A model generated the notes under the pieces. That model had not been told where the DNA came from. It searched no databases and saw only the letters and a program-made list of their open reading frames with translations. The position numbers and the translations under genes are program-made. A stretch of DNA of 64,000 nt from a virus: the IMG/VR virus record IMGVR_UViG_3300024348_000008. The stretch is one strand, 5' to 3'. Shown piece after piece: positions 18,728 through 38,119 of this stretch; within the stretch, counting starts at the first letter, position 1, and each line of letters begins with the position of its first letter.

Positions 18728-21259
18728 TTGAAATTTTATACTAATGTAAGCAGATATGGTAATATGCTTCTTTATCGTGGATATGATCATGGTAATGCAA
18801 TTAAGAAGCGAATTAAATATAAACCAACTCTTTTTGTAACAACTCCAAACGAATCAACGTGGACTTCCCTTGATGGTAAGGCCGTTGCACCTGTGCCTAT
18901 GGATTCTATGAGAGATGCTAAAGAATGGATACACACAAATAAACATGTCGCAGGTAGACAGATTTATGGTAATATTCGTCATCAATCTGCATTTATTCAA
19001 GATGAATTTCCTGGTGATATCAAATTCGATCGTAATGCAATTAATGTAACATCACTTGATATTGAAGTTGCATCTGATCAAGGTTTCCCAGAACCAGACG
19101 AAGCATTACACGAAATCACAGCCATAACAATTAAAAACAATAAAGATAATACATATTATGTGTGGGGTTGTGGAGATTATGACGTCACACGCTCTAATAT
19201 GAAAACACATAGAGTAGTTTATTATAAATGTGAATCAGAAGCAGCACTCTTAGTTGATTTTATTACGCATTGGTCTTCAGACGCACATTGTCCAGATGTA
19301 ATTACGGGTTGGAATTCAAGATTCTTTGATATACCATATATTGTTAATCGTACTATTCGCGTATTAGATGATAGTTGGGCAAAGAAGTTGTCGCCATGGG
19401 GATTAGTAGATGCTCGTGATGTAACAATCATGCAGCGAAAACAGACAGCATATGAAATTCAAGGTATTTCTCAAATGGATTATCTCGAATTATTCAAAAA
19501 GTTCGGCCATTCATATGGTCCACAAGAATCATATAAATTAGATCATATCGCAAATGTTGTTCTTGGTGAACGTAAGTTATCATATGAAGAACATAGTGGA
19601 TTATTTGATTTATACAAATTTGACTATCAAAAATTCATCGATTATAACATAAAAGACGTTGAATTAGTTGATCGTTTAGAAGATAAACTTGGTTTAATTA
19701 CTCTTGCAGTAACAATGGCCTATCGTGGTGGTGTAAACTATGGTGATACATTTGGTACAACTGCAATATGGGATTCTATTATATTTCGTAATCTTTACGA
19801 TAAAAATGTTATAGTTCCCTTTGCAGAAGATAAGATTAAATCTGCATATCCAGGAGGTTTTGTAAAAGATCCTATTGTTGGTATGCATAAAAACGTAGTT
19901 AGTTTTGACTTAAACTCTCTATATCCATCTATTATTATGCAATATAATATGTCACCAGAAACTATTATTGATGGTAATGTTTCTAGTATTGATGTCGATA
20001 AAATAATAGATGCAAAAGCAGCTGGTAGAACATTCTTAATCGATTGTCCAGGTGAAAGCGTTGCTGCAAATGGGCAACATTTTAATATAAATAAAAAGGG
20101 TATATTACCTACTATTATTGAAGGTATGTACAATGAACGTGTAAGCATAAAACGAGCTATGCTTAACGCTCAACAAGAATTACAACAGGTAAATAAAGAT
20201 GATAAACAAGAATTATATAGAATCGAAAGGGATATTGCAATATCTGAAAACCAACAAATGGCTATTAAGTTATTACTTAACAGTCTTTATGGTGCTCTCG
20301 GTAATCGTTATTTCCGATTCTTCGATCAACGTATCGCAGAAGCAATTACTCTCACCGGACAACTTACGATTAGATGGGCCGAATTATCGCTTAATGCCTA
20401 CTTACAATCTGTGCTTAAATCTAATGCCACCAAAGATTATGTCTTGGCCATCGACACCGATTCGGTGTATGTATGCCTAGATGATTTAGTACAAGCAGTT
20501 AATCCTTCTAATCCAATTGATTTCTTAGATAAAGTATGTCAAGATAAACTTGAACCGGTTCTTAAAGAATCGTATGCAGAATTATATGATCTCCTTGGTG
20601 GTATAGAAAATAAAATGGTTATGGCCCGAGAGGTTATTGCTGATGTTGGTATATGGACTGCCAAAAAACGTTACATTCTAAATGTATTTGATAATGAAGG
20701 AGTACGATATGCATCACCTAAACTTAAGATTATGGGTATTGAAGCTATTAAATCTTCTACCCCAGCACCTTGTCGCGAAGCACTAAAACAAATATTTAAA
20801 GTTATTGTTAGTGGTAATGAGAATAAAGTACAAGAATCGATATCACAATTTAAATCATATTTTAAATCTCTTCAACCACATGAGATTGCATTTCCTCGTG
20901 GAATAACTAAAATATCTGCATTTAAAGATAAAGAATTGATTTATAAGAAAGGTACTCCAATTCATGTACGAGGTGGATTATTATATAATAAAGAATTACA
21001 AGACAAATCTCTAACTCAAAAATATGAACGTATACAAAACGGTGAGAAGATTAAATTTATATATCTTCGCATCCCAAACCCAATTAAAGAAAATGTGATA
21101 TCATTTCCACAATATCTTCCCGAAGAATTTGGATTACACAAATATATCAATTACGAATTGCAATTCCAAAAAACGTTTTTGGATTCAATAGATCCGATAT
21201 TAGAGGCTATCGGATGGAACTCAAAGGAAATATCTACACTTGAAGATTTTTTCGCATAA
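18728..21259 (+). CDS. 43: family B DNA polymerase gp43
   Basis: DIEV exonuclease I, SFDLNSLYPS, KLLLNSLYGALGN, DTDS; TTG start. Confidence 0.99.
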   Translation: MKFYTNVSRYGNMLLYRGYDHGNAIKKRIKYKPTLFVTTPNESTWTSLDGKAVAPVPMDSMRDAKEWIHTNKHVAGRQIYGNIRHQSAFIQDEFPGDIKFDRNAINVTSLDIEVASDQGFPEPDEALHEITAITIKNNKDNTYYVWGCGDYDVTRSNMKTHRVVYYKCESEAALLVDFITHWSSDAHCPDVITGWNSRFFDIPYIVNRTIRVLDDSWAKKLSPWGLVDARDVTIMQRKQTAYEIQGISQMDYLELFKKFGHSYGPQESYKLDHIANVVLGERKLSYEEHSGLFDLYKFDYQKFIDYNIKDVELVDRLEDKLGLITLAVTMAYRGGVNYGDTFGTTAIWDSIIFRNLYDKNVIVPFAEDKIKSAYPGGFVKDPIVGMHKNVVSFDLNSLYPSIIMQYNMSPETIIDGNVSSIDVDKIIDAKAAGRTFLIDCPGESVAANGQHFNINKKGILPTIIEGMYNERVSIKRAMLNAQQELQQVNKDDKQELYRIERDIAISENQQMAIKLLLNSLYGALGNRYFRFFDQRIAEAITLTGQLTIRWAELSLNAYLQSVLKSNATKDYVLAIDTDSVYVCLDDLVQAVNPSNPIDFLDKVCQDKLEPVLKESYAELYDLLGGIENKMVMAREVIADVGIWTAKKRYILNVFDNEGVRYASPKLKIMGIEAIKSSTPAPCREALKQIFKVIVSGNENKVQESISQFKSYFKSLQPHEIAFPRGITKISAFKDKELIYKKGTPIHVRGGLLYNKELQDKSLTQKYERIQNGEKIKFIYLRIPNPIKENVISFPQYLPEEFGLHKYINYELQFQKTFLDSIDPILEAIGWNSKEISTLEDFFA

Positions 21260-21313: not shown

Positions 21314-21604
21314 ATGAAAAATATAAAATTAATTAGATTAACAAGCGGTGAAGAAATACTCGCTACAATTATAGATGATACTGATGGAGACGTCAATTTT
21401 AAAGAACCCATTGCTTTATATGCCGTAGAAGAAGGCAAAATGGGATTTATGCAATGGATGCCTTACACGACAGTAAAAGACGGAGTAACTATTAGCAAAT
21501 CAAAAATAATGTTTATGGCCGATCCTGTTGATGATGTATTAAATCAATATAAAGAAGCAACAGGTGGAATTGTTGTACCACCAAAACAAGGACTTATAGT
21601 ATAA
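21314..21604 (+). CDS. conserved hypothetical protein (Sm-like)
   Basis: IKLIRLTSGEEILA start; resembles 6400-6786. Confidence 0.7.
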   Translation: MKNIKLIRLTSGEEILATIIDDTDGDVNFKEPIALYAVEEGKMGFMQWMPYTTVKDGVTISKSKIMFMADPVDDVLNQYKEATGGIVVPPKQGLIV

Positions 21605-22020
21605 TGAATGATAATGATTGGGTAAAAGACATCTCTAATATGCAATACAAGTATAAAACTAAACTTTGGATGTATGAGAATAGAAATAATCCAGAAGCTT
21701 TGGCTAAATACTTAGAATTTCGTATTAATTTTTTAAAAGAAGAATTAGATGAAACAACTACAGCAGTATTGAATAATGATGCAGAAGAAATAGTAGACGG
21801 TTTAATAGATCTATGTGTAGTAGCAATTGGAACGCTTGATGCGTTTGGAGTTGATGCTAATGAAGCATGGAATGAAGTTCTAAAAGCTAACTTAAGTAAA
21901 GAAGTTGGAATAAAGCCAGAAAGGCCAAATCCATTAAATCTTCCAGATCTTATTAAGCCAGAAGGCTGGGTAGCTCCGTCACATAAAGGTAATCATGGAA
22001 ATTTCCCTAACGATATTTGA
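21604..22020 (+). CDS. MazG/PRA-PH-like NTP pyrophosphohydrolase
   Basis: EELDE...EIVDGLID...EVLKANLSK...LIKPEGW motifs. Confidence 0.85.
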   Translation: MNDNDWVKDISNMQYKYKTKLWMYENRNNPEALAKYLEFRINFLKEELDETTTAVLNNDAEEIVDGLIDLCVVAIGTLDAFGVDANEAWNEVLKANLSKEVGIKPERPNPLNLPDLIKPEGWVAPSHKGNHGNFPNDI

Positions 22021-24063: not shown

Positions 24064-24092
24064 TGTACAAACACCTAAAACTATGGTATAAT
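24064..24092 (+). promoter_or_regulatory. early promoter heading the nucleotide-modification cluster
   Basis: TGTACA-N17-TATAAT. Confidence 0.8.
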
Positions 24093-24121
24093 ATACCTAT
24101 ATTAAATAATGGAAATACATA

Positions 24122-24499
24122 ATGAGAGAATCAGTTAAAGTCTTGCAAGAATGCATAGATTTACAAACTCAAAAAGCGAATGATTATCAGAATCCAAATT
24201 CTAAAGTAAAACAAGCAGATTATTACCCAAATGGTGTAATGACTTTGCTTGATATTAATCATGCAAAAATGCTTAGAATGCAATCAGTAGTTGCAGCAAT
24301 GCAACACGATCCCGAATATAAACCAAATTTTGAATCTATAGAAGATTCTGCTAAAGATATGATTAATTATTGTAGTTTTATAGTTTCTTATTGTCGAGGT
24401 AAGATGGAAGGTCAAGATCCAAATAATGATTTTTTAAATAGACCAATGATTCCACTACTCATGACTGTGGAAGAGGTATTAAATAATGATAACGATTGA
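24122..24499 (+). CDS. nucleotide-modification-associated helical protein (DUF1599/Nmad-like)
   Basis: KANDY...K.LR...EDS.KD.INY pattern; first gene of the cluster. Confidence 0.55.
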   Translation: MRESVKVLQECIDLQTQKANDYQNPNSKVKQADYYPNGVMTLLDINHAKMLRMQSVVAAMQHDPEYKPNFESIEDSAKDMINYCSFIVSYCRGKMEGQDPNNDFLNRPMIPLLMTVEEVLNNDND

Positions 24500-25166
24500 A
24501 GCCGTAAGAAAGTATTTTAGATACCAATTAGATAATGGAATCTATACTACTGATAGAAATGGTGGTAAAACAATGGAAATGCTCGGCGCAGCATTTTTAG
24601 CAGATGAACCATCAATATTTGGTAAACCTAATAAAGAATATATCGATGCAGAAATAGAATGGTATATTTCACAATCAACAAATATTACTGACATTTATCC
24701 AGATGGTGATAAAGAACCACCTAAAGCGTGGCAAATGACTGCGAATGTTCATGGTGAAGTCAATTCAAATTATGGTAGACTTATTTGGGGTGATGAATAT
24801 GGTAATCAAAGAGAAATGGTTTGTCAAGAATTATTAGATAATAGAGATTCTCGTAGAGCATCGATGATTTATACTCGACCATCTATATGGAAAGAATATA
24901 ATTCCCAAGGCAAAAATGATTTTATATGTACAAATTCAGTAACATATTATATTAGAAATAATAAACTCCATTGTGTAGTTCAAATGAGATCTAATGATGT
25001 AGTATTTGGTTATAAGAATGATTATGCATGGCAAAAATGGGTTTTAGAAGATATGTGCTCGTCATTAAAAGTATTAAGATATAAAGAACTAAAGGTTGGT
25101 GATATACATTGGCAAGTACAAAATTTACATGTATATGAACAACATTTTAATTTGGTGAAAAGATGA
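24486..25166 (+). CDS. thymidylate-synthase-fold dUMP hydroxymethylase
   Basis: SRRA, DFICT catalytic Cys, QMRSNDVVFGYKND (Asn at the dUMP-specificity position), NLHVY; a separate ThyX exists elsewhere in the window. Confidence 0.8.
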   Translation: MITIEAVRKYFRYQLDNGIYTTDRNGGKTMEMLGAAFLADEPSIFGKPNKEYIDAEIEWYISQSTNITDIYPDGDKEPPKAWQMTANVHGEVNSNYGRLIWGDEYGNQREMVCQELLDNRDSRRASMIYTRPSIWKEYNSQGKNDFICTNSVTYYIRNNKLHCVVQMRSNDVVFGYKNDYAWQKWVLEDMCSSLKVLRYKELKVGDIHWQVQNLHVYEQHFNLVKR

Positions 25167-25627
25167 AAACAAGTTTTAAATGGGACGAAAGATATTTACA
25201 ACTAGCTAAACAAGTGGCTACTTGGAGTAAAGATCCAAGCACACAAGTTGGTGCTGTTGCTGTCGGTGATAAAGGTCAAGTTTTATCTCAAGGATATAAT
25301 GGATTTCCACGTGGAATAAAAGATAATGAGAGATATAACGATAAAGATTTAAAATACAGATACGTAGTACATGCAGAAATGAATTGTATATACAATGCAA
25401 CATTTCATGGAACTTCTTTAAATGGAGCTACGCTTTATGTACATGGATTACCGATGTGTAATGAATGTGCAAAAGCAATAATTCAAGTAGGAATAGTAAG
25501 AGTAGTTTCTCCATATAATGGAAATACAGATGTACCAGAAAAGTGGAAAATATCTTGTGCACATACACAACTTATATTAAAAGAAGTAAATATTCCATAT
25601 CAATTCATAAAGATGAATAAACAATGA
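25163..25627 (+). CDS. dCMP deaminase
   Basis: SKDPSTQVGA, GYNGFP, HAEMN, PMCNECAK. Confidence 0.95.
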   Translation: MKTSFKWDERYLQLAKQVATWSKDPSTQVGAVAVGDKGQVLSQGYNGFPRGIKDNERYNDKDLKYRYVVHAEMNCIYNATFHGTSLNGATLYVHGLPMCNECAKAIIQVGIVRVVSPYNGNTDVPEKWKISCAHTQLILKEVNIPYQFIKMNKQ

Positions 25628-25914
25628 CACAAAAATTTGACAAAAAAGAATTAGAAAATTCAAAAAGAATATTTAAATCAACAACACCAAGATATACAAT
25701 AGATTGGTATATTAAATGGGTTGCTTCGGCGTTTATATTAGCCGCAATGTCAATTAGAGGTGTAGAAGGATTTGTATTTTATGATGTATCTTTATCAATA
25801 ATTGGAATATTTTTATGGACTATAGTTAGTGTAATGTGGAATGATAGAGCTTTAATTATGTTGAATGCTGTAGGTCTTGCCTTTTTACTTTCTAGCTTTA
25901 TAAAATTATTATGA
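25624..25914 (+). CDS. small multi-pass membrane protein
   Basis: Three hydrophobic segments; DWYIKW...WNDRALIMLN. Confidence 0.7.
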   Translation: MTQKFDKKELENSKRIFKSTTPRYTIDWYIKWVASAFILAAMSIRGVEGFVFYDVSLSIIGIFLWTIVSVMWNDRALIMLNAVGLAFLLSSFIKLL

Positions 25915-27068
25915 TAAAAACTCGATATTATGATGATTTTATAAGATACTTTTATTTAGCAAAAGATCAACAAGAAAAATGCAATGTTCCAAATTTTATG
26001 CCACATCTAAAAAGTGGTATGAACGATGATCTAATGGAAAACGTTGAACTCTACGATGTTGTAGAACGTAAGTATGCAGGATTTTCTCAAATCATTAATG
26101 ATTGCTTTTATGGTTGGACAGATCAACACCCATATTGGTCCCGTATGCAAGCAGGAAAAGCTACTTCGCAAAGAGAATTAGTAGCTAATAATTGGACAGG
26201 AAAAAAATTCGATTTAGACACATGGTTGTTTTTGTTTATATTGCACAGAGTTACAGGAAGTGCAATTAATTACGCAACTAAACCTTCTGGTTATCATAAT
26301 ACAATATTATTTAAGTTTCATTTAGCAGAAAATATAGACGACATGAAGAAGATTATAAAAGCTGAAGGTAAAATGGGTAAACCGTTTTATACATCAGTTG
26401 GTTATCAATTTCCTGCATTTCCAAAACCTACAAAAGAATATAAAAAAGGCGGAGATTATTTTCTTTGTGAATATGTACCTAAACTTGCATACGAATTAGC
26501 AAGATTTTTAGAAACCCATGGAAGAAAAGATTTAAGAGAAATCGGTGATTTTATGTTAAATTGGAATGTTGAAAACGGATTACGAAGATATGTATTTCAA
26601 TATGCAGCAGTTGTTGCAGATATTGCCGATTGGTTTCCAGGATTTGTGAATCGTGAAAGCGCATTTTATTATGGTACAAATGCAGTAGAATGTATTTCAT
26701 ATCTCGGTGAAAATAATAATAAATTAAAGAAAGAAGAGTTTTTAGATGAAGTAATGATGCAAATATATGAAGATACAGGAAGTGTTCCATATAACGCAGA
26801 AGACGTATGTTGTGATTATATACGATGGGTTGAGAATTATGTTCGACCTGGTGCAGATTATTCTCATCTCGATTATGATCAGATTTGGTCAAGTAGTTAT
26901 ATTAAAGATCATCCGAGAGGAAGACAAAAAGCAATGTTAGATTTAGGATTAGTAGAAACATTTAATGGAATGACTGCTCACCCTTCGGATCTGAAAGTTT
27001 TAAATGATAATAATATTGGTATTGAAGAATATCAAGCAATGGTGAAATCATATGGCTCTGTTTCCTAA
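25911..27068 (+). CDS. putative amino acid:DNA transferase (aGPT-Pplase-like), paralog 1
   Basis: YDVVER, FQYAAVVADI, YGTNAVECI and NAEDVCCDYIRW loosely match the family motif order; context supports it. Confidence 0.55.
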   Translation: MIKTRYYDDFIRYFYLAKDQQEKCNVPNFMPHLKSGMNDDLMENVELYDVVERKYAGFSQIINDCFYGWTDQHPYWSRMQAGKATSQRELVANNWTGKKFDLDTWLFLFILHRVTGSAINYATKPSGYHNTILFKFHLAENIDDMKKIIKAEGKMGKPFYTSVGYQFPAFPKPTKEYKKGGDYFLCEYVPKLAYELARFLETHGRKDLREIGDFMLNWNVENGLRRYVFQYAAVVADIADWFPGFVNRESAFYYGTNAVECISYLGENNNKLKKEEFLDEVMMQIYEDTGSVPYNAEDVCCDYIRWVENYVRPGADYSHLDYDQIWSSSYIKDHPRGRQKAMLDLGLVETFNGMTAHPSDLKVLNDNNIGIEEYQAMVKSYGSVS

Positions 27069-28017
27069 CGAACATAATATAATATATCCAAACACATCTG
27101 AGGTTCCTATGAAGAAAGGTAAACCTACAGATACGTGGATGCAAGAATATACACTTGATGAACGAAAATCAAAGTTCTTTGAGTTTTGTGAAAAGTTTGA
27201 TCAAAGAAAGGATGATCTACTTAGAGATGATTTTCAAATATTTTCACATAGACTACATTGGGATGAACACCCATATGTAGAATTTTTACAGAATGAAGGA
27301 AGTAAAATAAAGTTAAGAAATTTCGAAAAGATTTGGTATACAATTGTTTTCTCGTTTTCAAATGAACATTGGGGAACATTTAAGGCAGTATATACCGGTG
27401 GCCAAAGCGGTCTAAAAACGCGCTTTGAAAAACATAGACATGCAAGATCTGATTTATTTCAAATATATTATCCAAAAGGAACAAAAGTTGCTCAATGGTT
27501 AATCGATGCACCTCTTAAATGTGCACACAAAATGCATAAAGTTTTAGACGAAAGACAAAAACCATGGACTATGATGGAACTTGCAAAAACGTTTGAAGCA
27601 TATTTTAAAGAAGAAGGTTTTAGATCTCCATTGTACCCATGTAAGAATTTCGCAAGATACATGGCTATGACATGGCCACATCAAGTTGATCCTGAATCTG
27701 TATTATTTGGAGGAACAGGTCATTTTGATGGAATGCAACAAATATTTGGTGGTAAAAACCTAAACGGTAAAGTGAAATATGATATCGTAGATGGTAAATT
27801 TATACCTCAAAATGAAGCAGCAGAATTATGGATGGAGCAAATGCAAGAATTGGTTGAAGATCCTAGAAATCCTATGACAAAACAAAAATTATTAAATATC
27901 GAAGATAAAACATGTTTCTTTTATAAGCATATGGCCATATCCCATGGAGCCAAAAGACCAACAAAGAGAATTCCACGAGATTGGATTTTCCCTAAGGAGT
28001 TTAAGCTTGAGTCATAA
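27052..28017 (+). CDS. putative amino acid:DNA transferase (aGPT-Pplase-like), paralog 2
   Basis: DDLLRDDFQIFSHR, GGTGHFDGM, NIEDKTCFFYKH echo paralog 1. Confidence 0.5.
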   Translation: MALFPNEHNIIYPNTSEVPMKKGKPTDTWMQEYTLDERKSKFFEFCEKFDQRKDDLLRDDFQIFSHRLHWDEHPYVEFLQNEGSKIKLRNFEKIWYTIVFSFSNEHWGTFKAVYTGGQSGLKTRFEKHRHARSDLFQIYYPKGTKVAQWLIDAPLKCAHKMHKVLDERQKPWTMMELAKTFEAYFKEEGFRSPLYPCKNFARYMAMTWPHQVDPESVLFGGTGHFDGMQQIFGGKNLNGKVKYDIVDGKFIPQNEAAELWMEQMQELVEDPRNPMTKQKLLNIEDKTCFFYKHMAISHGAKRPTKRIPRDWIFPKEFKLES

Positions 28018-28882
28018 TAAACACATTGAAGATGGGTTTAATAAAGATCGTGGCATGATGTTACCAAATCAAGCTATTGAGTATTATATGGATTTAGCAA
28101 ATGGTTGGGAAGATCCAAATCCACCAATCGTTGAAACAATTCATGAAGGTATTCGAGTAGTACGAGATGATTTAATAACAGGTTCAAAACAAAGAGCTGC
28201 AGATTTATTAATGTCAACAATCAAAGAAGATACAGTTGCTTATGTACAACCAAGAACTGGTCTAGCTGGAGTTTGTATCTTGCAAGCAGCTAAAAGGTAT
28301 AATAAGAAAGTACGTTTATATATGCCTTCTAGCAAGAGAATATCACACCATCAAGCGTGTTGTATTGAACAAGGAGCTGAAATAAGCTTCCATCGCATAG
28401 CTGCAATGCCAAATCTTAACAAAATCGCTGCCGAGGACGCCAAAAAGAATGGATTTTACTTTATTCCTCTTGGTTTGAAGCACAAATTAGTCACTGCAGG
28501 CTTCGTAAAGATAGCGCGCTCCCTCGTGCACCCAACAGAAGTTTATACAGTTATATCAACGGGAGTTCTCTCTCGTGCACTCCAGATCGCTTGGCCCATG
28601 GCAAAATTTACTGCGGTTGCAGTTGCAAGAAATATGAAAGCAGGTGAGAGTGGTAGAGCAGAATTAATTAGTGCACCAGAACCATTCACAAAAAATATTA
28701 AAAAAGAAGAAATGCCACCATTTCCAAGTATAGGAACATATGATGCAAAAGCATGGAGATATATACCTAAGAATACTGGAAGAAATATCTTATTTTGGAA
28801 TGTTGGTTCTGAACCGATATTACAAGATGAAACATTATATAACACAGTTGATAGCTACAGAGATTGGGATAAAAATTTATGA
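28007..28882 (+). CDS. PLP-dependent enzyme (fold type II), probable DNA-modification decarboxylase
   Basis: VVRDDLITGSK (Schiff-base Lys), STGVLSR, YDAKAW, LFWNVG; TTG 28007 after AAGGAG (ORF track starts at 27944). Confidence 0.75.
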   Translation: MSHNKHIEDGFNKDRGMMLPNQAIEYYMDLANGWEDPNPPIVETIHEGIRVVRDDLITGSKQRAADLLMSTIKEDTVAYVQPRTGLAGVCILQAAKRYNKKVRLYMPSSKRISHHQACCIEQGAEISFHRIAAMPNLNKIAAEDAKKNGFYFIPLGLKHKLVTAGFVKIARSLVHPTEVYTVISTGVLSRALQIAWPMAKFTAVAVARNMKAGESGRAELISAPEPFTKNIKKEEMPPFPSIGTYDAKAWRYIPKNTGRNILFWNVGSEPILQDETLYNTVDSYRDWDKNL

Positions 28883-29832
28883 TTACAGGAACATTTAATA
28901 AAATTCCTAAAAAACGTAATAGTCATGGATATGGATGGGCCAGAACTTGGGCAGAGAATTTGGATTGTGAAATTAATTATGATGGTGATCCTACAGATTT
29001 ATTATATTTAGATCATGGTGTTAATTTCGGAGGATCTCTAAACTTATTTGCTGGATTTAATGAAGATTTAAAGAAAAGAATAGATAACTTTTTAAAAGCT
29101 AACGTTGTATATTCTTTAGATATTGATATGCCAGATTATGGAGCAATGTTAAAGAAAAGAAAAGACGTAAAAGATAAAGAATGGTGTGATATAATTTCAG
29201 ACAAATGCGCACAAGCTATACCATTAAAATCAACAGATTTATTAGAATTGAACTGGTTAACTATAGGCGATTCTCATACTGCAGCATATGCACGACCAAA
29301 TTCAATGGTTATTAAAACAGATGGATTAACACTAAACGGACAAATTAATAGTAATTTTGAATATATTCAATCTCATATCAAAGAATGTAACCCAAAGGGT
29401 ATAACTATGGTATTTGGTAATATCGATATAAGACATCATATATGTAGACTTAATATCGATCCAACAGAAATGCTTACCAAATGGAGAAACTTTGGATTAT
29501 TGTTAGAACATAAAGGAATATCTGTTGAATATTCTACTCCATGGCCAATTGAACATGAAGATCGAAAATTACCAAAAACTGGATATTATAAAAATCAACC
29601 ATTTTGGGGAACAAGAGATGAAAGAATATCAGCATTAAATCAATGGATTTTAATAATGGATACATTAGGAATGAAAAGAATTAAATATCCAGATGATTGG
29701 TTTTTGTTAAACGGTGAACGTTATGCTAAAGAAAAAATGGAAAATACATCGTCTGTACACCTCTCACCTGAGATGTACAGAAGAAAAAATTGGGGAAATA
29801 ACCATGTACAATTGTCTCAATTTATGGTATAA
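28879..29832 (+). CDS. hypothetical protein with SGNH/GDSL-like C-terminal domain
   Basis: IGDSH, FGNID, SVHLS block motifs. Confidence 0.5.
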   Translation: MITGTFNKIPKKRNSHGYGWARTWAENLDCEINYDGDPTDLLYLDHGVNFGGSLNLFAGFNEDLKKRIDNFLKANVVYSLDIDMPDYGAMLKKRKDVKDKEWCDIISDKCAQAIPLKSTDLLELNWLTIGDSHTAAYARPNSMVIKTDGLTLNGQINSNFEYIQSHIKECNPKGITMVFGNIDIRHHICRLNIDPTEMLTKWRNFGLLLEHKGISVEYSTPWPIEHEDRKLPKTGYYKNQPFWGTRDERISALNQWILIMDTLGMKRIKYPDDWFLLNGERYAKEKMENTSSVHLSPEMYRRKNWGNNHVQLSQFMV

Positions 29833-29849
29833 TATACCCTATATAAATA
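29805..29849 (+). promoter_or_regulatory. tandem early plus late promoter upstream of bS21
   Basis: TGTACA(29805)-N17-TATAAT, then TATAAATA at 29842. Confidence 0.7.
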
Positions 29850-29865
29850 ATAATACTGGAGAAAC

Positions 29866-30123
29866 ATGCCCTCAATAGATTTAAGACCTAGGAAAAACAA
29901 AAATCCTAAGGATAAAAGACAACCTAAACCAATGCCATTTGACGTTGCACTACGCAAATTTAAAAAAGCCGTCGAACGCGCTGGAATTATTCAAGAAGTA
30001 AAACGTAGAGAATTCTATGAAAAACCTACGGCTAAACGAAAACGTAAAAAAGCAGAAGCTGTAGCTCGAACCCGAAGGCAGCATGCTGCAAATGAATTAA
30101 AACCTAGAAACCACTGGAGGTAA
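29866..30123 (+). CDS. rpsU: phage-encoded 30S ribosomal protein bS21
   Basis: [11 protein letters not shown]...[29 protein letters not shown]. Confidence 0.93.
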
Positions 30124-30126
30124 ATA

Positions 30127-31197
30127 ATGGGAATAATGGATAAATTGAAAAAGAACTCTAAAATTAAGACAACAGAGGTTTTGTCTAATTCGGTTTTTTT
30201 TAAAGAACAAGACGTAGTAGTAACAGACGTTCCAATGATAAATGTTGCTTTAGCTGGTGATATAGATGGAGGACTAACATCTGGTTTAACAGTTTTAGCT
30301 GGTCCATCAAAACACTTTAAAACTTCTTTTGCTTTGCTTATGGCATCTGCATATTTGAAAGAGCATCCTGATTCAGTATTGTTGTTTTATGATTCTGAAT
30401 TTGGATCTCCTCAACAATACTTCGAATCTTTTGGTATAGATACTGATAGAGTATTACATACTCCTATAACAGATGTAGAGCAATTAAAATTTGATTTAGT
30501 TAGTCAGCTAGATAATATTGAAAGAGGCGATAAACTAATAATAGTTATTGACTCTATTGGTAATTTAGCTTCTAAGAAAGAATTAGAAGATGCGCTAAAT
30601 GAAAAAGGTGTAGCAGATATGTCAAGAGCTAAGGCTCTTAAAGGGTTGTTTAGAATGACAACGCCATATTTAACTATGAAAAACATTCCGTTATTAGCAG
30701 TTAATCATACGTATCAAGAAATTGGATTGTTTCCTAAAGCAATCGTTTCAGGTGGTACTGGTATTTACTATTCAGCGGATAATATTTGGATAATCGGTCG
30801 CCAACAAAATAAACAAGGTACCGAAATAAAAGGTTACAATTTTGTAATCAATGTGGAGAAATCAAGGTTTGTTAAAGAAAAATCTAAAGTTCCTATCGCC
30901 GTTTCTTGGGAAGGTGGGATTGAATGTTATAGTGGTCTTTTGGACGTTGCTCTTGCTGGTAATTACGTTGCTAAGCCTAGTAATGGTTGGTATTGTAGGG
31001 TTGATCGTGAATCTGGAGAATTGGTGTACCCAAAGGTTCGCGAAAAAGATACACTTAAAGAAGAATTTTGGACACCCATATTTGAAGGAACAGATTTCAA
31101 AAAATTCATCAAGGGTCATTACCAAATTGGACATAAACCATTATTGGAAGTTGAAGTAACTGGATTGGAATCTTCTAATGAGGAAGAAGATGAATAA
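30127..31197 (+). CDS. uvsX: recombinase UvsX (RecA-like)
   Basis: AGPSKHFKT, FYDSEFG, IDSIGNLAS, SGGTGIYYSAD. Confidence 0.97.
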   Translation: MGIMDKLKKNSKIKTTEVLSNSVFFKEQDVVVTDVPMINVALAGDIDGGLTSGLTVLAGPSKHFKTSFALLMASAYLKEHPDSVLLFYDSEFGSPQQYFESFGIDTDRVLHTPITDVEQLKFDLVSQLDNIERGDKLIIVIDSIGNLASKKELEDALNEKGVADMSRAKALKGLFRMTTPYLTMKNIPLLAVNHTYQEIGLFPKAIVSGGTGIYYSADNIWIIGRQQNKQGTEIKGYNFVINVEKSRFVKEKSKVPIAVSWEGGIECYSGLLDVALAGNYVAKPSNGWYCRVDRESGELVYPKVREKDTLKEEFWTPIFEGTDFKKFIKGHYQIGHKPLLEVEVTGLESSNEEEDE

Positions 31198-32890: not shown

Positions 32891-33076
32891 ATGAAAATAT
32901 TTACAAAAGCCAAAGATTGGCTAGTGGCAAGAATGCCTGAAAGAACATCGCACGATGGCGTATTACTTATTGTAATATGTGGATCAGTGATACTTTTTGG
33001 TGGTCTAGCCAAACTACTCGCGTGGGTAGGACTTGTATGGGGTATATACACCCTTGTCAGAGGAGAAGCTAAATGA
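32891..33076 (+). CDS. small membrane protein
   Basis: ERTS.DG followed by two hydrophobic segments; strong SD. Confidence 0.7.
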   Translation: MKIFTKAKDWLVARMPERTSHDGVLLIVICGSVILFGGLAKLLAWVGLVWGIYTLVRGEAK

Positions 33077-33705
33077 TAAGTACTATAAGAATGGCGCTTT
33101 TAAGTGCACTACTAATATTACCTTCATTTGCAGTACAAGCTGACACTTCAGGTTCGATATCTCTTGCTTCGGATTATTTCTGGAGAGGAGTATCACAAAA
33201 CGCTGGTAATCCTGCGCTACAAGCAGGATTAGCCTGGAATCATGGTTCTGGAGTTTATGCTAGCGCATGGACAAGTCAGGTGGATTTTGGAGATGATGCG
33301 AATATTCAATATGATTTGGTGGCTGGATATAATTTAGCCGTAACAAATGATATGACAATAGGCGCAGGTATTCTACAAAGAAACTTTGATGCTGGATATG
33401 ACGACGTTGAAGAATTGTTTGTTGATGCAGTATGGAAAAATACTAATATGACATATTATGTAAATTCTGATAATAGAAAATCAACATACTTTGAATTAAG
33501 TCAAGGATTACCATTTATTACTTTTATTGATACTAAAATTGGATATGGTTCAATGAAAGAAACTGGTACAAATTCACGATTTGTATCATTAAATTTATCA
33601 AAAAACATATCTGACAGTGTAACTGTTGGTTTAATGGTTCTTGATGGGGTAAGACATGGTGATATGCTGGATTCAGCAGCAATAACATTTGCATATAACT
33701 TCTAA
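33073..33705 (+). CDS. TorF/Gcw_chp-family outer-membrane beta-barrel
   Basis: Signal peptide; SDYFWRGVSQ...PALQAG...GVYASAW.S.VDF; C-terminal Phe (YNF). Confidence 0.85.
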   Translation: MISTIRMALLSALLILPSFAVQADTSGSISLASDYFWRGVSQNAGNPALQAGLAWNHGSGVYASAWTSQVDFGDDANIQYDLVAGYNLAVTNDMTIGAGILQRNFDAGYDDVEELFVDAVWKNTNMTYYVNSDNRKSTYFELSQGLPFITFIDTKIGYGSMKETGTNSRFVSLNLSKNISDSVTVGLMVLDGVRHGDMLDSAAITFAYNF

Positions 33706-33739: not shown

Positions 33740-34399
33740 TTGAACGTTAAACTTATATCATATTCGCAACCAACTGAAGAATTTCAACTAGAAGGAGATT
33801 TACTTCAGTTGGTTGCTTTTTGCGCAAGAGTCTCAAATCCTAAAGGTCAGGTTAATATTAAAACCGCCGAGAAACTTGTTAAATATTTAATTAAAAATAA
33901 ACACTGGTCACCACTTGAAATGGTTAGTGTTTGCTTAGAGATCGAAACAACTCGAGATATTGCTAGACAATTATTAAGACATCGATCTTTCTCTTTTCAA
34001 GAATACTCTCAAAGATATGCCGACGTCTCAGAATTGGGAGTTGCATTTACTACGCGAGAAGCTAGAATGCAAGACACAAAAAATAGACAAAATTCAATAC
34101 CAGTTAAACATGATGAATCAATTAATTATATTTGGGAATCATATCAAGAAGTAATTATTGAACGTTGTAAGAAAGCTTATGCTTGGGCACTAGAAGCAGG
34201 TATAGCAAAAGAACAAGCTAGAGCTGTTTTACCAGAAGGTTTAACAATGAGTAAAATGTATGTTAATGGAACTTTAAGATCGTGGATCCATTACGTAGAA
34301 TTAAGATCTGCACATGGAACACAACAAGAACATATGGAAATAGCAAAAGCTGTCGGTGATGTAATCTATAAAATCTTCCCCCTAGACGACATTATTTAG
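33740..34399 (+). CDS. thyX: flavin-dependent thymidylate synthase
   Basis: HWSPLE, RQLLRHRSFSFQEYSQRY, EQARAVLP, HGTQQEH. Confidence 0.96.
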   Translation: MNVKLISYSQPTEEFQLEGDLLQLVAFCARVSNPKGQVNIKTAEKLVKYLIKNKHWSPLEMVSVCLEIETTRDIARQLLRHRSFSFQEYSQRYADVSELGVAFTTREARMQDTKNRQNSIPVKHDESINYIWESYQEVIIERCKKAYAWALEAGIAKEQARAVLPEGLTMSKMYVNGTLRSWIHYVELRSAHGTQQEHMEIAKAVGDVIYKIFPLDDII

Positions 34400-36859: not shown

Positions 36860-38098
36860 ATGAAATCATTTAAACAAAATTTACACGAGGCCGCTGGAAA
36901 AAATACTCATATGACTCACATTGAGGATTTAGTTCTAGACGGTGGAGTCAAGGGGGCACGCCAAGCTATTCTCGCGTTAAGGTCGCTCAGAGATATGCTA
37001 TCCGGGAACACCGCAACAGGCGTTGATGTGACGGTAAAATGGGACGGTGCCCCCGCCGTTTTTGCAGGAGAAGATCCATCTGATGGTAAATTCTTTGTTG
37101 CTAAAAAGGGTATTTTTGCAAAATCACCAAAAATATATAAAAGTCATGAAGATATTAAAGCAGATACTAGCGGAGATCTTCAAGGTAAATTAATTAAAGC
37201 ATATGATAATCTAAAAAATCTTGGAATTAAAGAAGTAATTCAAGGCGATTTTATGTTTGAAAAAAAGGACTTAAAAAGAGAAAAAATAAATGGAATCAAA
37301 CATGTTGTATTTCATCCAAATACAATTGCCTATGCTATTCCAGAAACAGATCCTCTTGCTAAAACTATTTTAAATGCAGAAATTGGAATTGTTTGGCATA
37401 CATCATATAGAGGTATAGCCTTTGAAACAATGCAAGCAGAATTCGGAAGAGACATTACATCAAAATTAAAACCAACAAAGAAGGTTTGGATGGTAGATGC
37501 TAAACTTCCCCATACTGAAGGAGCTGTTATGACAGCAGCTCAAACTAAAAAAGTTACAGAAAAACTAATACTAGCAGGCCAAATCTTTAAAAAAATAAAA
37601 AGTAGTACATTAAAAGAGCTTGAATCAAATAAAGAATTAAACCTTGTAATGAACATTTGGAATAATAGAAAGGTTAGAGAAGGCCAAAGAATTAAAGATA
37701 CCACTAAACATGCAACAGGTTTAGTAATGTTTGTAAAAGATAGATATCAAAAAGAGATTGATAAAGTTTCTAGACCAACATCAAAACAAGCAAAAGCAGA
37801 TAAAAGAGATGAATTATTACAATTTTTTAGTAAACAAAATCTAAAAAACTTAGCATTAGTATATGATTTACAAAATTATATCACAGATGCGAAGTTAATT
37901 ATTATAAATAAACTAAACAGTTTGAGTTCTATTGGAACTTTTGTAAAAACTAAATCCGGATTTAGAGTAACCAACCCCGAAGGTTTTGTTGCTATAGATC
38001 GTATGGAAGGTGGAGCCGTTAAGCTTGTTAATAGATTAGAATTTTCTACTAACAATTTTAGCAAAGATATTATAAAAGGTTGGGATAATCCCAACTAA
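36860..38098 (+). CDS. conserved T4-like protein (DUF6267-like) with ligase-type nucleotidyltransferase motifs
   Basis: KNTHMTHIED, VKWDGAPA (KxDG), QGDFMF, PEGFV, VKLV. Confidence 0.65.
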   Translation: MKSFKQNLHEAAGKNTHMTHIEDLVLDGGVKGARQAILALRSLRDMLSGNTATGVDVTVKWDGAPAVFAGEDPSDGKFFVAKKGIFAKSPKIYKSHEDIKADTSGDLQGKLIKAYDNLKNLGIKEVIQGDFMFEKKDLKREKINGIKHVVFHPNTIAYAIPETDPLAKTILNAEIGIVWHTSYRGIAFETMQAEFGRDITSKLKPTKKVWMVDAKLPHTEGAVMTAAQTKKVTEKLILAGQIFKKIKSSTLKELESNKELNLVMNIWNNRKVREGQRIKDTTKHATGLVMFVKDRYQKEIDKVSRPTSKQAKADKRDELLQFFSKQNLKNLALVYDLQNYITDAKLIIINKLNSLSSIGTFVKTKSGFRVTNPEGFVAIDRMEGGAVKLVNRLEFSTNNFSKDIIKGWDNPN

Positions 38099-38119
38099 TA
38101 TGGAAATAAACCGAGGATT

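What the first reader, a model, noticed from the sequence alone, without database searches (positions are those of the whole stretch)
24064..29832. Probable thymidine hypermodification operon with two divergent DNA-transferase paralogs, a PLP enzyme and an unexplained SGNH-like protein
Seen: one early promoter drives a coupled series: Nmad-like protein, TS-fold enzyme (MRSND...KND, Asn indicating dUMP specificity), dCMP deaminase, membrane protein, two paralogs sharing G-x-(N/G)...N-x-ED-x-x-C motifs, a PLP fold-II enzyme and an SGNH-like (GDSH/GNID/SVH) protein. Established: phages such as ViI, phiW-14 and M6 make 5hmdU, phosphorylate it in DNA, transfer an amino acid or amine with aGPT-Pplase/AADT enzymes, and in some cases process it with PLP enzymes. 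Inference: this phage makes a hypermodified T. The divergent transferases and the SGNH-like partner (a possible acyl transfer or removal step) could give an uncharacterised base. No 5hmU DNA kinase is recognisable in this window.
Basis: partly seen in the sequence, partly recalled or inferred. Interest (0 to 1): 0.75.

Follow-up and report, generated by a model that had tools for sequence, protein, structure and literature searches.

The report
Kinase-free hydroxymethylcytosine hypermodification operon
An uncultured T4-like water phage makes T4's hydroxymethylcytosine but, in place of T4's sugar-adding enzymes, carries a widespread and uncharacterised enzyme set that probably puts an unknown amino-acid-derived group on the cytosines (not the thymines) of its DNA.

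Summary
The target base was misread. The thymidylate-synthase-fold enzyme is a close homolog of T4 gp42 (PDB 1b49, E 3.5e-66). It has Asp, not Asn, at the specificity position, so it should make 5-hydroxymethyl-dCMP. A ThyX gene in the window covers ordinary dTMP.

The two unknown proteins (A1, 385 aa; A2, 321 aa) are distant paralogs (hhalign 90%, E 1.4e-6). The A2 model's best solved match is the amino-acid:DNA transferase PaMx11 gp46 (Z 10.0). A1 gives the same fold class more weakly. The PLP enzyme is related to M6 gp52, the DNA-linked amino-acid decarboxylase, and keeps the Schiff-base lysine.

The SGNH-like protein keeps Ser/Asn/His blocks. In other phages it is fused to an A1-like domain, so the two work together. 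No 5-hmU DNA kinase was found.

Best reading: post-replicative, kinase-free hypermodification of 5hmC. The product is unknown. About half of related loci have the full set.

One complete relative has A1 and A2 but no hydroxymethylase, which is unexplained. Earlier notes of this scan reached the same reading on other genomes. Nothing in the searched literature describes the system.

The parts
21604..22020 (+). MazG/PRA-PH-type NTP pyrophosphohydrolase.
   Evidence: Pfam PF01503, E 2.1e-11; phrog_671 and phrog_12019. A homolog lies 2-6 kb upstream of A1 in 28 of 44 related loci. The same Pfam family co-occurs with TS and dCMP deaminase on cytosine-modified contigs in PMC8670742.
23478..24044 (+). 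SNase-like nuclease directly upstream of the cassette (context only).
   Evidence: PF00565, E 3e-10; phrog_452 'endonuclease'. In L006 the gene at the equivalent place has a weak T4 EndoIV hit. A role in degrading unmodified DNA is inference only.
24064..24092 (+). Promoter-like site: TGTACA, 17 nt, TG-TATAAT.
   Evidence: It lies in the 77-nt gap before the first gene. The same motif recurs at 29805-29833. The count of such sites is not above the shuffled expectation.
24122..24499 (+). Small Nmad1/DUF1599-like protein, probably a partner of the MazG-like enzyme.
   Evidence: No Pfam hit. It matches phrog_18404 at positions 168-250, while the MazG-like ORF matches positions 47-139 of the same profile. 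ESM Atlas: 21 of the 30 nearest clusters carry DUF1599. It is 52% identical to the first gene of the L006 cassette.
24486..25166 (+). dCMP hydroxymethylase of the T4 gp42 type (5hmdCMP synthase).
   Evidence: PDB 1b49, E 3.5e-66. The motifs are DFICTN and MRSNDVVFGYKND, giving Asp at the ThyA L143, D169 and N177 positions. The criteria come from PMC13326640.
25163..25627 (+). dCMP deaminase.
   Evidence: PF00383, E 7.7e-22; phrog_174, E 2e-44.
25624..25914 (+). Small membrane protein (DUF6552). It is an optional member of the cassette.
   Evidence: PF20189, E 1.3e-17. It is present only in the closest relatives: 6 of 44 loci with enough upstream sequence.
25911..27068 (+). A1: a helix-hairpin-helix / amino-acid:DNA-transferase-fold protein with the motifs VN-x-ES...GTN and NAEDVCCD.
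   Evidence: No Pfam or PHROG hit. It has 942 metagenome homologs and none in 50,697 phage records. The model (pLDDT 73) matches QNG1 at Z 7.2, PaMx11 gp46 at Z 6.9, then HhH glycosylases. An A1-like domain is fused behind the SGNH-like domain in 7 representative proteins.
27052..28017 (+). A2: a distant paralog of A1 and the closest structural relative of PaMx11 gp46 (PUGT). Motifs are VDPES...GGTG and NIEDKTC.
   Evidence: hhalign of A3 against A2 gives 90% probability, E 1.4e-6. The model has pLDDT 87.7. 8z2m is the top match at Z 10.0 with 227 of 287 residues aligned. Foldseek ranks 8z2n first, prob 0.82. BFVD top hits are named 'Amino acid:DNA transferase domain' and '5-hmdU DNA kinase helical domain' proteins.
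27944..28882 (+). PLP fold-II enzyme of the M6 gp52 family. The Schiff-base lysine is Lys82.
   Evidence: phrog_7093, E 6e-34; PALP, E 6e-5. The family profile hits M6 gp52 at 33.7 bits, E 2e-12, and aligns Lys82 with gp52 Lys36; the two also share the PFP..YD.KAW...FWN.G tail. Lys82 is conserved in at least 95% of 51 family sequences. The start at 27944 is supported by homologs that align from residue 22.
28879..29832 (+). SGNH/GDSL-like protein with an extra N-terminal region of about 120 aa. It is a functional partner of A1.
   Evidence: G130-D-S132-H, G180-N181-I-D183 and S292-V-H294 are invariant or nearly invariant in 22 relatives. ESM Atlas structure matches to GDSL clusters reach TM 0.47-0.65. 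It is fused to an A1-like domain in P0265, P0271, P0289, P0307, P0327, P0337 and P0348, at E 1e-23 to 6e-41.
33740..34399 (+). ThyX (context): the phage's own route to ordinary dTMP.
   Evidence: PF02511, E 1.9e-41. A homolog lies 6-9 kb downstream of A1 in many related loci.

Best explanation
The operon replaces cytosine with 5-hydroxymethylcytosine and then decorates that base in the DNA polymer without a base kinase.

Step 1, before replication. This is shown by homology. A T4 gp42-type enzyme makes 5hmdCMP. A MazG-like pyrophosphohydrolase, with its Nmad1-like partner, and a dCMP deaminase adjust the pools. The deaminase also feeds dUMP to ThyX, so thymine stays ordinary.

Step 2, after replication. 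This is inferred. The SGNH-fold enzyme and A1 act as one unit; they are a single polypeptide in other phages. A1, with its glycosylase/transferase fold, would flip out and hold the base. The Ser-His enzyme would work on the 5-hydroxymethyl group, most likely esterifying it into a leaving group. That is the role the P-loop 5-hmU DNA kinase plays in thymidine pathways.

Step 3, inferred. A2 is the closest structural relative of the glycine:DNA transferase PaMx11 gp46 and has a matching E-[D/T]-x-x-C motif. It would replace the leaving group with an amino acid or amine. Where A2 is absent, A1 would do this.

Step 4, inferred from homology to M6 gp52. The PLP enzyme tailors the attached amino acid, probably by decarboxylation. 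Because no radical-SAM isomerase is present, the amino acid must keep a free alpha-amine, so it is probably linked through its side chain, as serine is in ViI.

The end product would be an undescribed amine-bearing 5-substituted cytosine that shields the DNA from host nucleases.
For: 1. Hydroxymethylase identity and specificity. PDB 1b49 matches at E 3.5e-66, with Asp aligned to T4 D179. Asp sits at all three diagnostic positions, by the criteria of PMC13326640. The same signature is in 39 of 40 TS homologs (35 distinct) beside A1 homologs, and in the very different phage contig L010.
2. ThyX is in the window. It is the only other thymidylate route seen, and G007 and G008 have one ThyA-family gene each.
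3. A1 and A2 are paralogs. A2's fold is closest to PUGT: Z 10.0, three units above the next hit, and Foldseek rank 1. The BFVD neighbours are AADT-domain and HMUDK-helical-domain proteins. A1 matches PUGT at Z 6.9 alongside HhH glycosylases.
4. PUGT's active site uses Glu243, Thr244 and Cys247 (PMC11472151). A1 has E297-D298-x-x-C301 and A2 has E284-D285-x-x-C288. These residues are invariant within A1's and A2's own families.
5. The PLP family hits M6 gp52 with the Lys aligned.
6. The SGNH-like domain is fused to the A1-like domain in seven representative proteins. In L008 and L010 these fused genes lie next to PALP genes, and in L010 also next to an Asp-type TS.
7. Co-occurrence. Of 57 loci with at least 4 kb downstream, 30 have A2+PLP+SGNH and 15 have PLP+SGNH. 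Of 44 loci with enough upstream sequence, 28 have the TS module.
8. No ADDT or HMUDK_hel Pfam match in five relatives' contigs, one of them CheckV 100% and one 91% complete.
Against: - No chemistry is shown. No virion DNA, read-level or enzymatic data could be obtained.
- The Pfam ADDT model does not hit the window's A1 or A2. hhalign against nine canonical transferases is insignificant, at probability below 2%. The link to AADT therefore rests on fold and a short motif, and the motif's equivalence was not checked by superposition.
- The A1 model is of middling confidence (pLDDT 73) and its Z of about 7 is ordinary for helical proteins.
- A complete relative (G002) has A1 and A2 but no TS-family gene, C5-methyltransferase or TET. 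The pair is therefore not strictly tied to phage-made 5hmC.
- No gp1-type dNMP kinase, which is needed to bring 5hmdCMP to the triphosphate, was found. That search used a single sequence only.
- The SGNH fold rests on motifs and on ESM Atlas matches of TM about 0.5. Its donor and its direction (acyl transfer or hydrolysis) are guesses.
Confidence: 0.6

Rival explanations
1. One reading: thymidine hypermodification. 5hmdUMP would arise from the TS-fold enzyme using dUMP, or from the coupled deaminase converting 5hmdCMP to 5hmdUMP. The transferase paralogs and the PLP enzyme would then decorate 5hmU in DNA.
For: Every characterised AADT and M6 gp52-type PLP enzyme acts on thymidine derivatives (PMC8989533). 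The deaminase gene is translationally coupled directly behind the hydroxymethylase.
Against: The specificity residue is Asp, as in T4 gp42. This holds here and in 39 of 40 neighbours of A1 homologs. ThyX is present, which a phage that replaces T would not need. No 5-hmU DNA kinase or HMUDK helical domain was found in the window or in five relatives. T4 itself has both gp42 and a dCMP deaminase. The TS, MazG and deaminase trio marks cytosine-modified contigs in PMC8670742.
Confidence: 0.08
2. Only the left half is a modification module, giving plain 5hmC DNA. A1 and A2 would be glycosylase-fold proteins with another job, such as repair, base excision or counter-defence against host glycosylases or nucleases. 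The PLP and SGNH genes would be unrelated metabolic cargo.
For: A1's best structural hits include QNG1 and many HhH glycosylases at the same Z as PUGT. G002 has A1 and A2 beside a true HhH-GPD protein and has no hydroxymethylase. 16 of 44 loci lack the TS module within 7 kb.
Against: The SGNH-A1 fusion and the recurrent adjacency of PALP and Asp-type TS in unrelated phage backgrounds. The PLP enzyme's homology is specifically to the DNA-modifying M6 gp52, not to metabolic enzymes. A2's top hit is the transferase, not a glycosylase. G001, a locus without a nearby TS, has the TS about 14 kb away.
Confidence: 0.12
3. The SGNH-A1 unit is itself the terminal enzyme. It would O-acylate 5hmC, for example to 5-acetoxymethyl- or another 5-acyloxymethyl-cytosine, with A1 acting only as the DNA-binding and base-flipping module. 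That is the role the helical domain plays in 5-hmU DNA kinases. A2 and PLP would be an optional second pathway.
For: Minimal cassettes hold only TS, deaminase, A1 and SGNH (L006, L035, L037, L046). Pfam recognises a helical domain of this fold attached to the kinase (PF18723). Aeromonas phages with an Asp-type gp42 and no glucosyltransferase carry the SGNH-like domain on a different C-terminal part (PMC2993671).
Against: The E-D-x-x-C-C-D motif is invariant in A1's close family and its Glu, Cys and Asp are nearly invariant (at least 90%) across the 70-sequence A3 set, which suggests catalysis rather than binding alone. No acyl donor or acyl-carrier gene is evident. Ester-linked bases would be labile.
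Confidence: 0.12
4. The decoration happens on free nucleotides before replication, as was left open for the 5hmC carbamoyltransferase. The finished base would then be incorporated by the phage polymerase.
For: A1's top structural hit is QNG1, whose PDB entry is titled a queuine salvage enzyme. The carbamoyltransferase of PMC8670742 accepts 5hmdCTP.
Against: The nearest characterised relatives, PUGT and M6 gp52, act on DNA (PMC11472151, PMC8989533). The HhH fold is a DNA base-flipping fold.
Confidence: 0.06

Closest known systems
Thymidine hypermodification pathways of phages M6, ViI, PaMx11, PhiW-14 and SP10 (5-hmU DNA kinase, amino-acid:DNA transferase / aGPT-Pplase2, PLP decarboxylase; PMC8989533, PMC11472151)
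   Same: A pre-replicative hydroxymethyl-pyrimidine is made by a TS homolog. There is a transferase-fold protein, often as a paralogous pair. The PLP fold-II enzyme is homologous to M6 gp52. The genes are clustered and co-transcribed.
   Different: The hydroxymethylase is dCMP-specific by signature, so the base is C and not T. There is no P-loop kinase; an SGNH-fold protein sits in its place and is fused to the helical domain in some phages. A1 and A2 do not match the ADDT Pfam model. No radical-SAM, FAD or acetyltransferase partner is present.
T4 5hmC pathway (gp42, gp56, gp1, cd, alpha- and beta-glucosyltransferases)
   Same: A close gp42 homolog (E 3.5e-66), a dCMP deaminase, an NTP pyrophosphohydrolase, and a T4-like replication module around the cassette (gp43-type polymerase, UvsX, DnaB-like helicase).
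   Different: No glucosyltransferase was recognised in the cassette or among the window ORFs scanned. No gp1 homolog was found. The decorating enzymes are of the transferase, PLP and SGNH type.
5hmC carbamoyltransferase system found by MetaGPA (PMC8670742)
   Same: The same left-hand module (TS with Asp, PRA-PH/MazG, dCMP deaminase) coupled to a non-sugar group-transfer enzyme in uncultured phages.
   Different: A different decorating enzyme family. No carbamoyltransferase is present here.
C5-methyltransferase/TET contigs with a P-loop kinase and aG/PT-PPlase (PMC8256090)
   Same: A published hint that 5hmC could enter a transferase-type hypermodification.
   Different: There, 5hmC comes from methylation plus oxidation, and a P-loop kinase is present. 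The products were not determined. Here 5hmC is pre-replicative and no kinase is present.
5-hydroxycytosine arabinosylation of RB69 and DLP3 (PMC13326640)
   Same: A gp42-like TS homolog in a T4-like phage that lacks the T-even glucosyltransferases.
   Different: Those enzymes carry Asn at the ThyA D169 position and make 5hodCMP. The window's enzyme keeps Asp, and no glycosyltransferase or NDP-sugar genes lie in the cassette.

Membership tests
T4 gp42-type dCMP hydroxymethylase (5hmdCMP synthase) | Thymidylate-synthase fold with the catalytic Cys | tested here: met
   PF00303, E 4.7e-14. PDB 1b49, E 3.5e-66, over residues 2-224; the Cys of DFICTN aligns with the Cys of T4's DFMCTN.
T4 gp42-type dCMP hydroxymethylase (5hmdCMP synthase) | Asp at the ThyA N177 / T4 D179 position (dCMP rather than dUMP) | tested here: met
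   The Asp of KND aligns with T4 D179. The variant chain 6l18 shows Asn at that column. The criterion is stated in PMC13326640.
T4 gp42-type dCMP hydroxymethylase (5hmdCMP synthase) | Acidic residue at the ThyA L143 position (hydroxymethyl rather than methyl product) | tested here: met
   The Asp of N-D-F-I-C lies three residues before the catalytic Cys, as in T4's S-D-F-M-C.
T4 gp42-type dCMP hydroxymethylase (5hmdCMP synthase) | Asp kept at the ThyA D169 position (Asn marks 5-hydroxy-dCMP synthases) | tested here: met
   The motif is MRSND, as in T4. 39 of 40 neighbouring homologs are D/D/D.
T4 gp42-type dCMP hydroxymethylase (5hmdCMP synthase) | Product is 5hmdCMP | not testable with these tools
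   Needs an enzyme assay or in vivo expression with LC-MS.
Amino-acid:DNA transferase (aGPT-Pplase2 / Pfam ADDT PF18724) | Match to the family's sequence profile | tested here: not met
   No Pfam hit for A1 or A2 at E <= 0.1. Only 1 of 70 A1 relatives hits PF18724, at E 1e-3. hhalign against an alignment of nine canonical AADTs gives probability below 2%. UniProt names a 49%-identical A2 ortholog 'Amino acid:DNA transferase domain-containing'.
Amino-acid:DNA transferase (aGPT-Pplase2 / Pfam ADDT PF18724) | Two-helix-bundle, glycosylase-like fold of PaMx11 gp46 | tested here: met
   A2: 8z2m at Z 10.0, rmsd 4.1, 227 of 287 aligned, rank 1; Foldseek rank 1, prob 0.82. A1: Z 6.9, rmsd 4.3, 208 aligned, tied with QNG1 and HhH glycosylases.
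Amino-acid:DNA transferase (aGPT-Pplase2 / Pfam ADDT PF18724) | Active-site Glu-Thr-x-x-Cys (PUGT E243, T244, C247) | tested here: inconclusive
   E297-D298-x-x-C301 (A1) and E284-D285-x-x-C288 (A2) are invariant within their own families and lie at a comparable distance from the C-terminus. Residue-level superposition was not available. One hhalign path instead aligned the VDPES motif with the EVET motif.
Amino-acid:DNA transferase (aGPT-Pplase2 / Pfam ADDT PF18724) | Works downstream of a P-loop 5-hmU DNA kinase on 5-phosphomethyl-dU | tested here: not met
   No kinase in the cassette. No PF18723 match in five relatives' contigs. The hydroxymethylase is dCMP-type.
M6 gp52 / ViI gp226 PLP-dependent enzymes acting on DNA-linked amino acids | Sequence homology to M6 gp52 | tested here: met
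   The family profile hits M6 gp52 at 33.7 bits, E 2.1e-12, in two collinear stretches including the shared C-terminal YD-KAW...FWN-G motif. phrog_7093, E 6e-34.
M6 gp52 / ViI gp226 PLP-dependent enzymes acting on DNA-linked amino acids | Schiff-base lysine (M6 gp52 K36) | tested here: met
   Lys82 aligns with gp52 Lys36 and is conserved in at least 95% of 51 sequences. K36 is named in PMC8989533.
M6 gp52 / ViI gp226 PLP-dependent enzymes acting on DNA-linked amino acids | Decarboxylation of a base-linked amino acid | not testable with these tools
   Needs reconstitution.
SGNH/GDSL hydrolase superfamily | Block I GDS nucleophile, block III GxND, block V His | tested here: met
   G130, D131, S132, H133, G180, I182, D183, S292 and H294 are invariant and N181 and V293 nearly invariant in 22 sequences at 29-83% identity. 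No Asp lies three residues before the His.
SGNH/GDSL hydrolase superfamily | Profile or fold match | tested here: inconclusive
   No Pfam hit for the window protein. Two fused relatives hit Lipase_GDSL at E 0.02. ESM Atlas model matches to GDSL clusters reach TM 0.47-0.65 over residues 80-316. The PDB profile search gave nothing.
Nmad1 / DUF1599 | Profile match | tested here: inconclusive
   No Pfam hit. In the ESM Atlas feature search, 21 of the 30 nearest clusters carry PF07659, which is on 10% of members in the best such cluster.

The most novel reading that the evidence does not exclude
A new, kinase-free logic of DNA hypermodification. An SGNH-fold enzyme joined to a glycosylase-fold, cysteine-bearing domain would activate 5-hydroxymethylcytosine in duplex DNA by esterification. 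A paralogous transferase would then swap the ester for an amino acid, and a PLP enzyme would trim it. The result would be a cytosine derivative never described, carried by a large share of T4-like phages of oceans and lakes.
Probability: 0.3. Interest if true: 0.85.

Novelty: new variant of a known kind. Interest (0 to 1): 0.72.

Why it matters
Known amino-acid or amine hypermodifications of phage DNA all sit on thymine and all start with a base kinase. Known decorations of 5hmC are sugars and a carbamoyl group. This cassette would extend transferase-plus-PLP chemistry to cytosine, with a different activating enzyme.

It is also common. A1 has 942 protein clusters at 90% identity in public metagenomes and at least 568 loci in IMG/VR. 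It has no homolog in 50,697 sequenced phage isolates, so the base has probably never been in anyone's mass spectrometer.

A bulky charged cytosine in abundant aquatic phages would matter in three ways. It would affect restriction, CRISPR and glycosylase defences. It could bias virome sequencing through enzymatic library preparation and nanopore base calling. It could also supply new enzymes for labelling 5hmC.

Tried and rejected
- Pfam, NCBIfam and PHROG scans of A1 and A2 gave nothing.
- PDB sequence and profile searches with A1, A2, the SGNH family and the PLP protein gave only chance-level hits.
- tblastn of A1 and A2 against 50,697 phage records gave no match.
- hhalign of A1, A2 and the 70-sequence family against PaMx11 gp46 alone, and against nine canonical transferases, was insignificant.
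- ADDT (PF18724) and HMUDK_hel (PF18723) searches of five relatives' contigs gave no match.
- A T4 gp1 (dNMP kinase) search of the window and five relatives gave no match. This was a single-sequence search, so it is weak.
- I first took L006:11137-12132 for an A2 homolog and L006:12938-13888 for the SGNH homolog. BLAST showed that the former is the SGNH homolog and that L006 has neither A2 nor PLP.
- The C-terminal 465 aa of Aeromonas phage 31 ORF233c do not match the A1, A2 or AADT profiles.
- The 5-hydroxy-dCMP synthase reading (RB69 type) was considered and rejected, because the diagnostic Asn at the ThyA D169 position is absent.
A1-A2 or A1-SGNH binding and read-level evidence of modification could therefore not be examined.

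Full report
**What the window is.** The window is low in G+C (about 31%) and almost all genes are on the + strand. It carries a T4-type replication module: a gp43-type polymerase at 18728-21259, a primase-like gene, UvsX at 30127-31197 and a DnaB-like helicase. It also has class I ribonucleotide reductase, RNase H and a ribosomal protein S21 gene. The nearest sequenced phage by UvsX is Phage C48C1 (Kyanoviridae, 77% identity). That phage has a methyltransferase and sugar-nucleotide genes at the place where this window has the cassette. No whole genome is held for the window.

**The observation.** Eight ORFs from 24122 to 29832 overlap one another by 4 to 74 nt. A promoter-like TGTACA-17-TG-TATAAT site fills the only upstream gap, and an identical one precedes the S21 gene. 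Such sites are no more frequent than in shuffled sequence, so the promoter is plausible rather than shown.

**The base.** The 226-aa enzyme matches T4 dCMP hydroxymethylase in the PDB at E 3.5e-66, against about 1e-5 for true thymidylate synthases.
- A 2026 paper gives the diagnostic positions (PMC13326640). ThyA N177 becomes Asp for dCMP. ThyA L143 becomes acidic for a hydroxymethyl product. ThyA D169 becomes Asn in 5-hydroxy-dCMP synthases.
- The window enzyme reads DFICTN...MRSNDVVFGYKND, that is Asp, Asp and Asp, exactly as in T4.
The determinant is the Asp after it. The variant chain 6l18 carries Asn at that column.
- The same D/D/D signature is in 39 of 40 TS homologs (35 distinct sequences; the 40th is a fragment) beside A1 homologs in IMG/VR. 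It is also in L006, and in L010, which is a quite different phage.
- The window encodes ThyX (PF02511, E 1.9e-41). The dCMP deaminase therefore has its ordinary T4-like job of feeding dTMP synthesis.
- A MazG/PRA-PH gene lies 2 kb upstream. TS, PRA-PH and dCMP deaminase are the trio that MetaGPA found on cytosine-modified phage contigs (PMC8670742).

**The two unknown proteins.** A1 (385 aa) and A2 (321 aa) have no Pfam, NCBIfam or PHROG match and no relative in 50,697 phage records. They do have 942 and 471 metagenomic clusters respectively.
- Paralogy. Pairwise they are barely similar (E 0.11). A profile of A2 finds many distant members of A1's family.
- A2 fold. The AlphaFold model (pLDDT 87.7) has PaMx11 gp46/PUGT, the crystallised glycine:DNA transferase, as its best solved match: Z 10.0, 227 of 287 residues aligned, three Z units above the HhH glycosylases that follow. 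Foldseek independently ranks it first (prob 0.82).
- A2 viral neighbours. In the viral model library the neighbours are proteins that UniProt names 'Amino acid:DNA transferase domain-containing'. One is a 49%-identical ortholog. One is a 385-aa protein that is probably an A1 ortholog. Others are '5-hmdU DNA kinase helical domain' proteins of phiRSL1, PhiW-14 and SP10.
- A1 fold. The model is weaker (pLDDT 73). It gives QNG1 at Z 7.2, PUGT at Z 6.9, then a run of HhH glycosylases.
- Active-site motif. PUGT binds the flipped base with Glu243, Thr244 and Cys247 (PMC11472151). A1 has E297-D298-V-C-C301 and A2 has E284-D285-K-T-C288, invariant within their own families.
- Limits. I could not superpose residues, and sequence-profile comparison with nine canonical transferases is insignificant. 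I therefore place A1 and A2 in the same fold superfamily, not in the ADDT family itself.

**The PLP enzyme.** It hits phrog_7093 at E 6e-34 and PALP weakly. A profile of 51 family members hits M6 gp52, the enzyme shown to decarboxylate a DNA-linked amino acid, at 33.7 bits. Lys82 aligns with gp52 Lys36, the predicted Schiff-base lysine, and the two share a distinctive C-terminal motif. The only cultured-phage relatives are a domain inside Erythrobacter phage R6L gp1 ('DNA modification methylase') and a gene behind two ParB genes in Microcystis phage Mae-JY30. That is again a DNA-modification setting.

**The SGNH-like protein.**
- The GDSH, GNID and SVH blocks are invariant or nearly so in 22 sequences down to 29% identity.
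- The ESM Atlas model of this exact protein resembles GDSL hydrolases at TM 0.47-0.65.
- Seven representative proteins of 639-790 aa are fusions of this domain (N-terminal, E 1e-23 to 6e-41) with an A1-like domain (C-terminal).
- In L010 such a fusion lies with a PALP gene, an Asp-type TS and a dUTPase_2/MazG-like gene. In L008 it lies next to a PALP gene that is 46% identical to the window's. In L009 the SGNH-like and A1-like genes are neighbours in a phage that has its own single-subunit RNA polymerase.
- Pfam records that canonical 5-hmU DNA kinases carry a helical domain of this same fold (PF18723). The SGNH-A1 unit is therefore architecturally the counterpart of kinase plus helical domain. 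This is the basis for proposing that the SGNH enzyme replaces the kinase as activator. It is inference.

**How conserved the set is.**

| Loci examined (A1 at 63-83% identity) | Genes found with A1 | Number of loci |
|---|---|---|
| 57 with at least 4 kb downstream | A2 + PLP + SGNH | 30 |
| | PLP + SGNH | 15 |
| | A2 only | 6 |
| | SGNH only | 3 |
| | A2 + SGNH | 2 |
| | PLP only | 1 |
| 44 with at least 3.5 kb upstream | TS module within 7 kb | 28 |
| | none of the upstream module (MazG, Nmad-like, TS, deaminase, membrane protein) within 7 kb | 16 |

One locus without a nearby TS has the gene about 14 kb away. The cassette also sits at different places relative to UvsX in different phages, as a mobile module would.

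**What does not fit.**
- G002 is a 174-kb contig rated 100% complete. It has an HhH-GPD protein, A1 (63% identical), a 165-aa ORF and A2. It has no TS-family gene, no C5-methyltransferase, no TET, no SGNH and no PLP. Either these phages obtain the substrate another way, or A1 and A2 do not need 5hmC.
- No gp1-type dNMP kinase was found.

These two points, and the absence of any chemical data, keep my confidence near 0.6.

**Comparison with the literature.**
- Thymidine hypermodification needs kinase, AADT and tailoring enzymes (PMC8989533).
- 5hmC is known to be glucosylated or carbamoylated (PMC8670742). 5hoC is arabinosylated (PMC13326640). 5-carboxymethylcytosine is amidated (PMC12783734).
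- Burke et al. noted P-loop kinase and aG/PT-PPlase genes beside C5-MT/TET and suggested 5hmC phosphorylation, without products (PMC8256090).
- Five full-text searches found nothing on an SGNH-associated, kinase-free transferase system on 5hmC.
- Earlier AI notes of this scan, on other genomes and on this stretch, reached the same reading. I arrived at it independently and tested the Asp signature, the folds, the fusion and the co-occurrence here.

**Verdict.** The feature is real and the base was assigned to the wrong pyrimidine. Most likely it is a new variant of the phage DNA hypermodification theme, acting on 5hmC, with an unknown product. Aeromonas phages 31, 44RR2.8t and 25 offer a bench handle for the SGNH-like domain. 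They have an Asp-type gp42 (checked here for phage 31), no glucosyltransferase and the SGNH-like domain in ORF233c (PMC2993671).

Noticed in passing
L078:9128-12644 (IMG/VR contig of 174 kb, CheckV 100%): An HhH-GPD protein, an A1 homolog (63% identity), a 165-aa ORF and an A2 homolog lie in a row. The complete phage contig has no thymidylate-synthase-family gene, no C5-methyltransferase, no TET, and no SGNH or PLP partner.
   Followed up: partly
L002:5992-8379 (Aeromonas phage 31 ORF233c, 795 aa): The N-terminal 330 aa are homologous to the window's SGNH-like protein (33% identity, E 3e-37). The C-terminal 465 aa match none of the A1, A2 or AADT profiles. The phage has a D/D/D gp42 homolog, and by the literature it has no glucosyltransferase, so its 5hmC decoration is an open and testable question.
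   Followed up: partly
L004 (Erythrobacter phage R6L gp1) and L005:6992-7702 (Microcystis phage Mae-JY30): The only cultured-phage relatives of the PLP enzyme are a domain inside a large 'DNA modification methylase' and a stand-alone gene right after two ParB/sulfiredoxin genes. This hints at a second, unrelated DNA-modification setting for this PLP family.
   Followed up: no
L006:12194-13888: In the minimal cassette (TS, deaminase, A1, SGNH), two ORFs of 247 and 316 aa with no family match take the place of A2 and PLP.
   Followed up: no
window 29866-30123: A phage-encoded ribosomal protein S21 (PF01165, E 6.6e-18) lies directly behind the cassette. It is preceded by the same promoter-like motif as the cassette (29805-29833).
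   Followed up: no
window 60377-63175 and 33073-33705: A CsgG-like curli secretion lipoprotein (PF03783, E 1e-48), a FecR-domain protein and a Gcw_chp outer-membrane-type protein are encoded in a phage genome.
   Followed up: no
window 55897-57318 and 45625-46383: A RimK-type ATP-grasp ligase (PF08443, E 4e-28) and a class 3 lipase (PF01764, E 4e-20). No link to the cassette was found.
   Followed up: no
window 36860-39391: A DUF6267 protein (E 3e-97) is followed by a protein that PHROGs calls a cytidylyltransferase (phrog_395, E 4e-70). The same pair follows the cassette in L006. An earlier scan note mentions a TagD-like gene inside a related cassette, so a nucleotide-activated donor is conceivable.
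   Followed up: no
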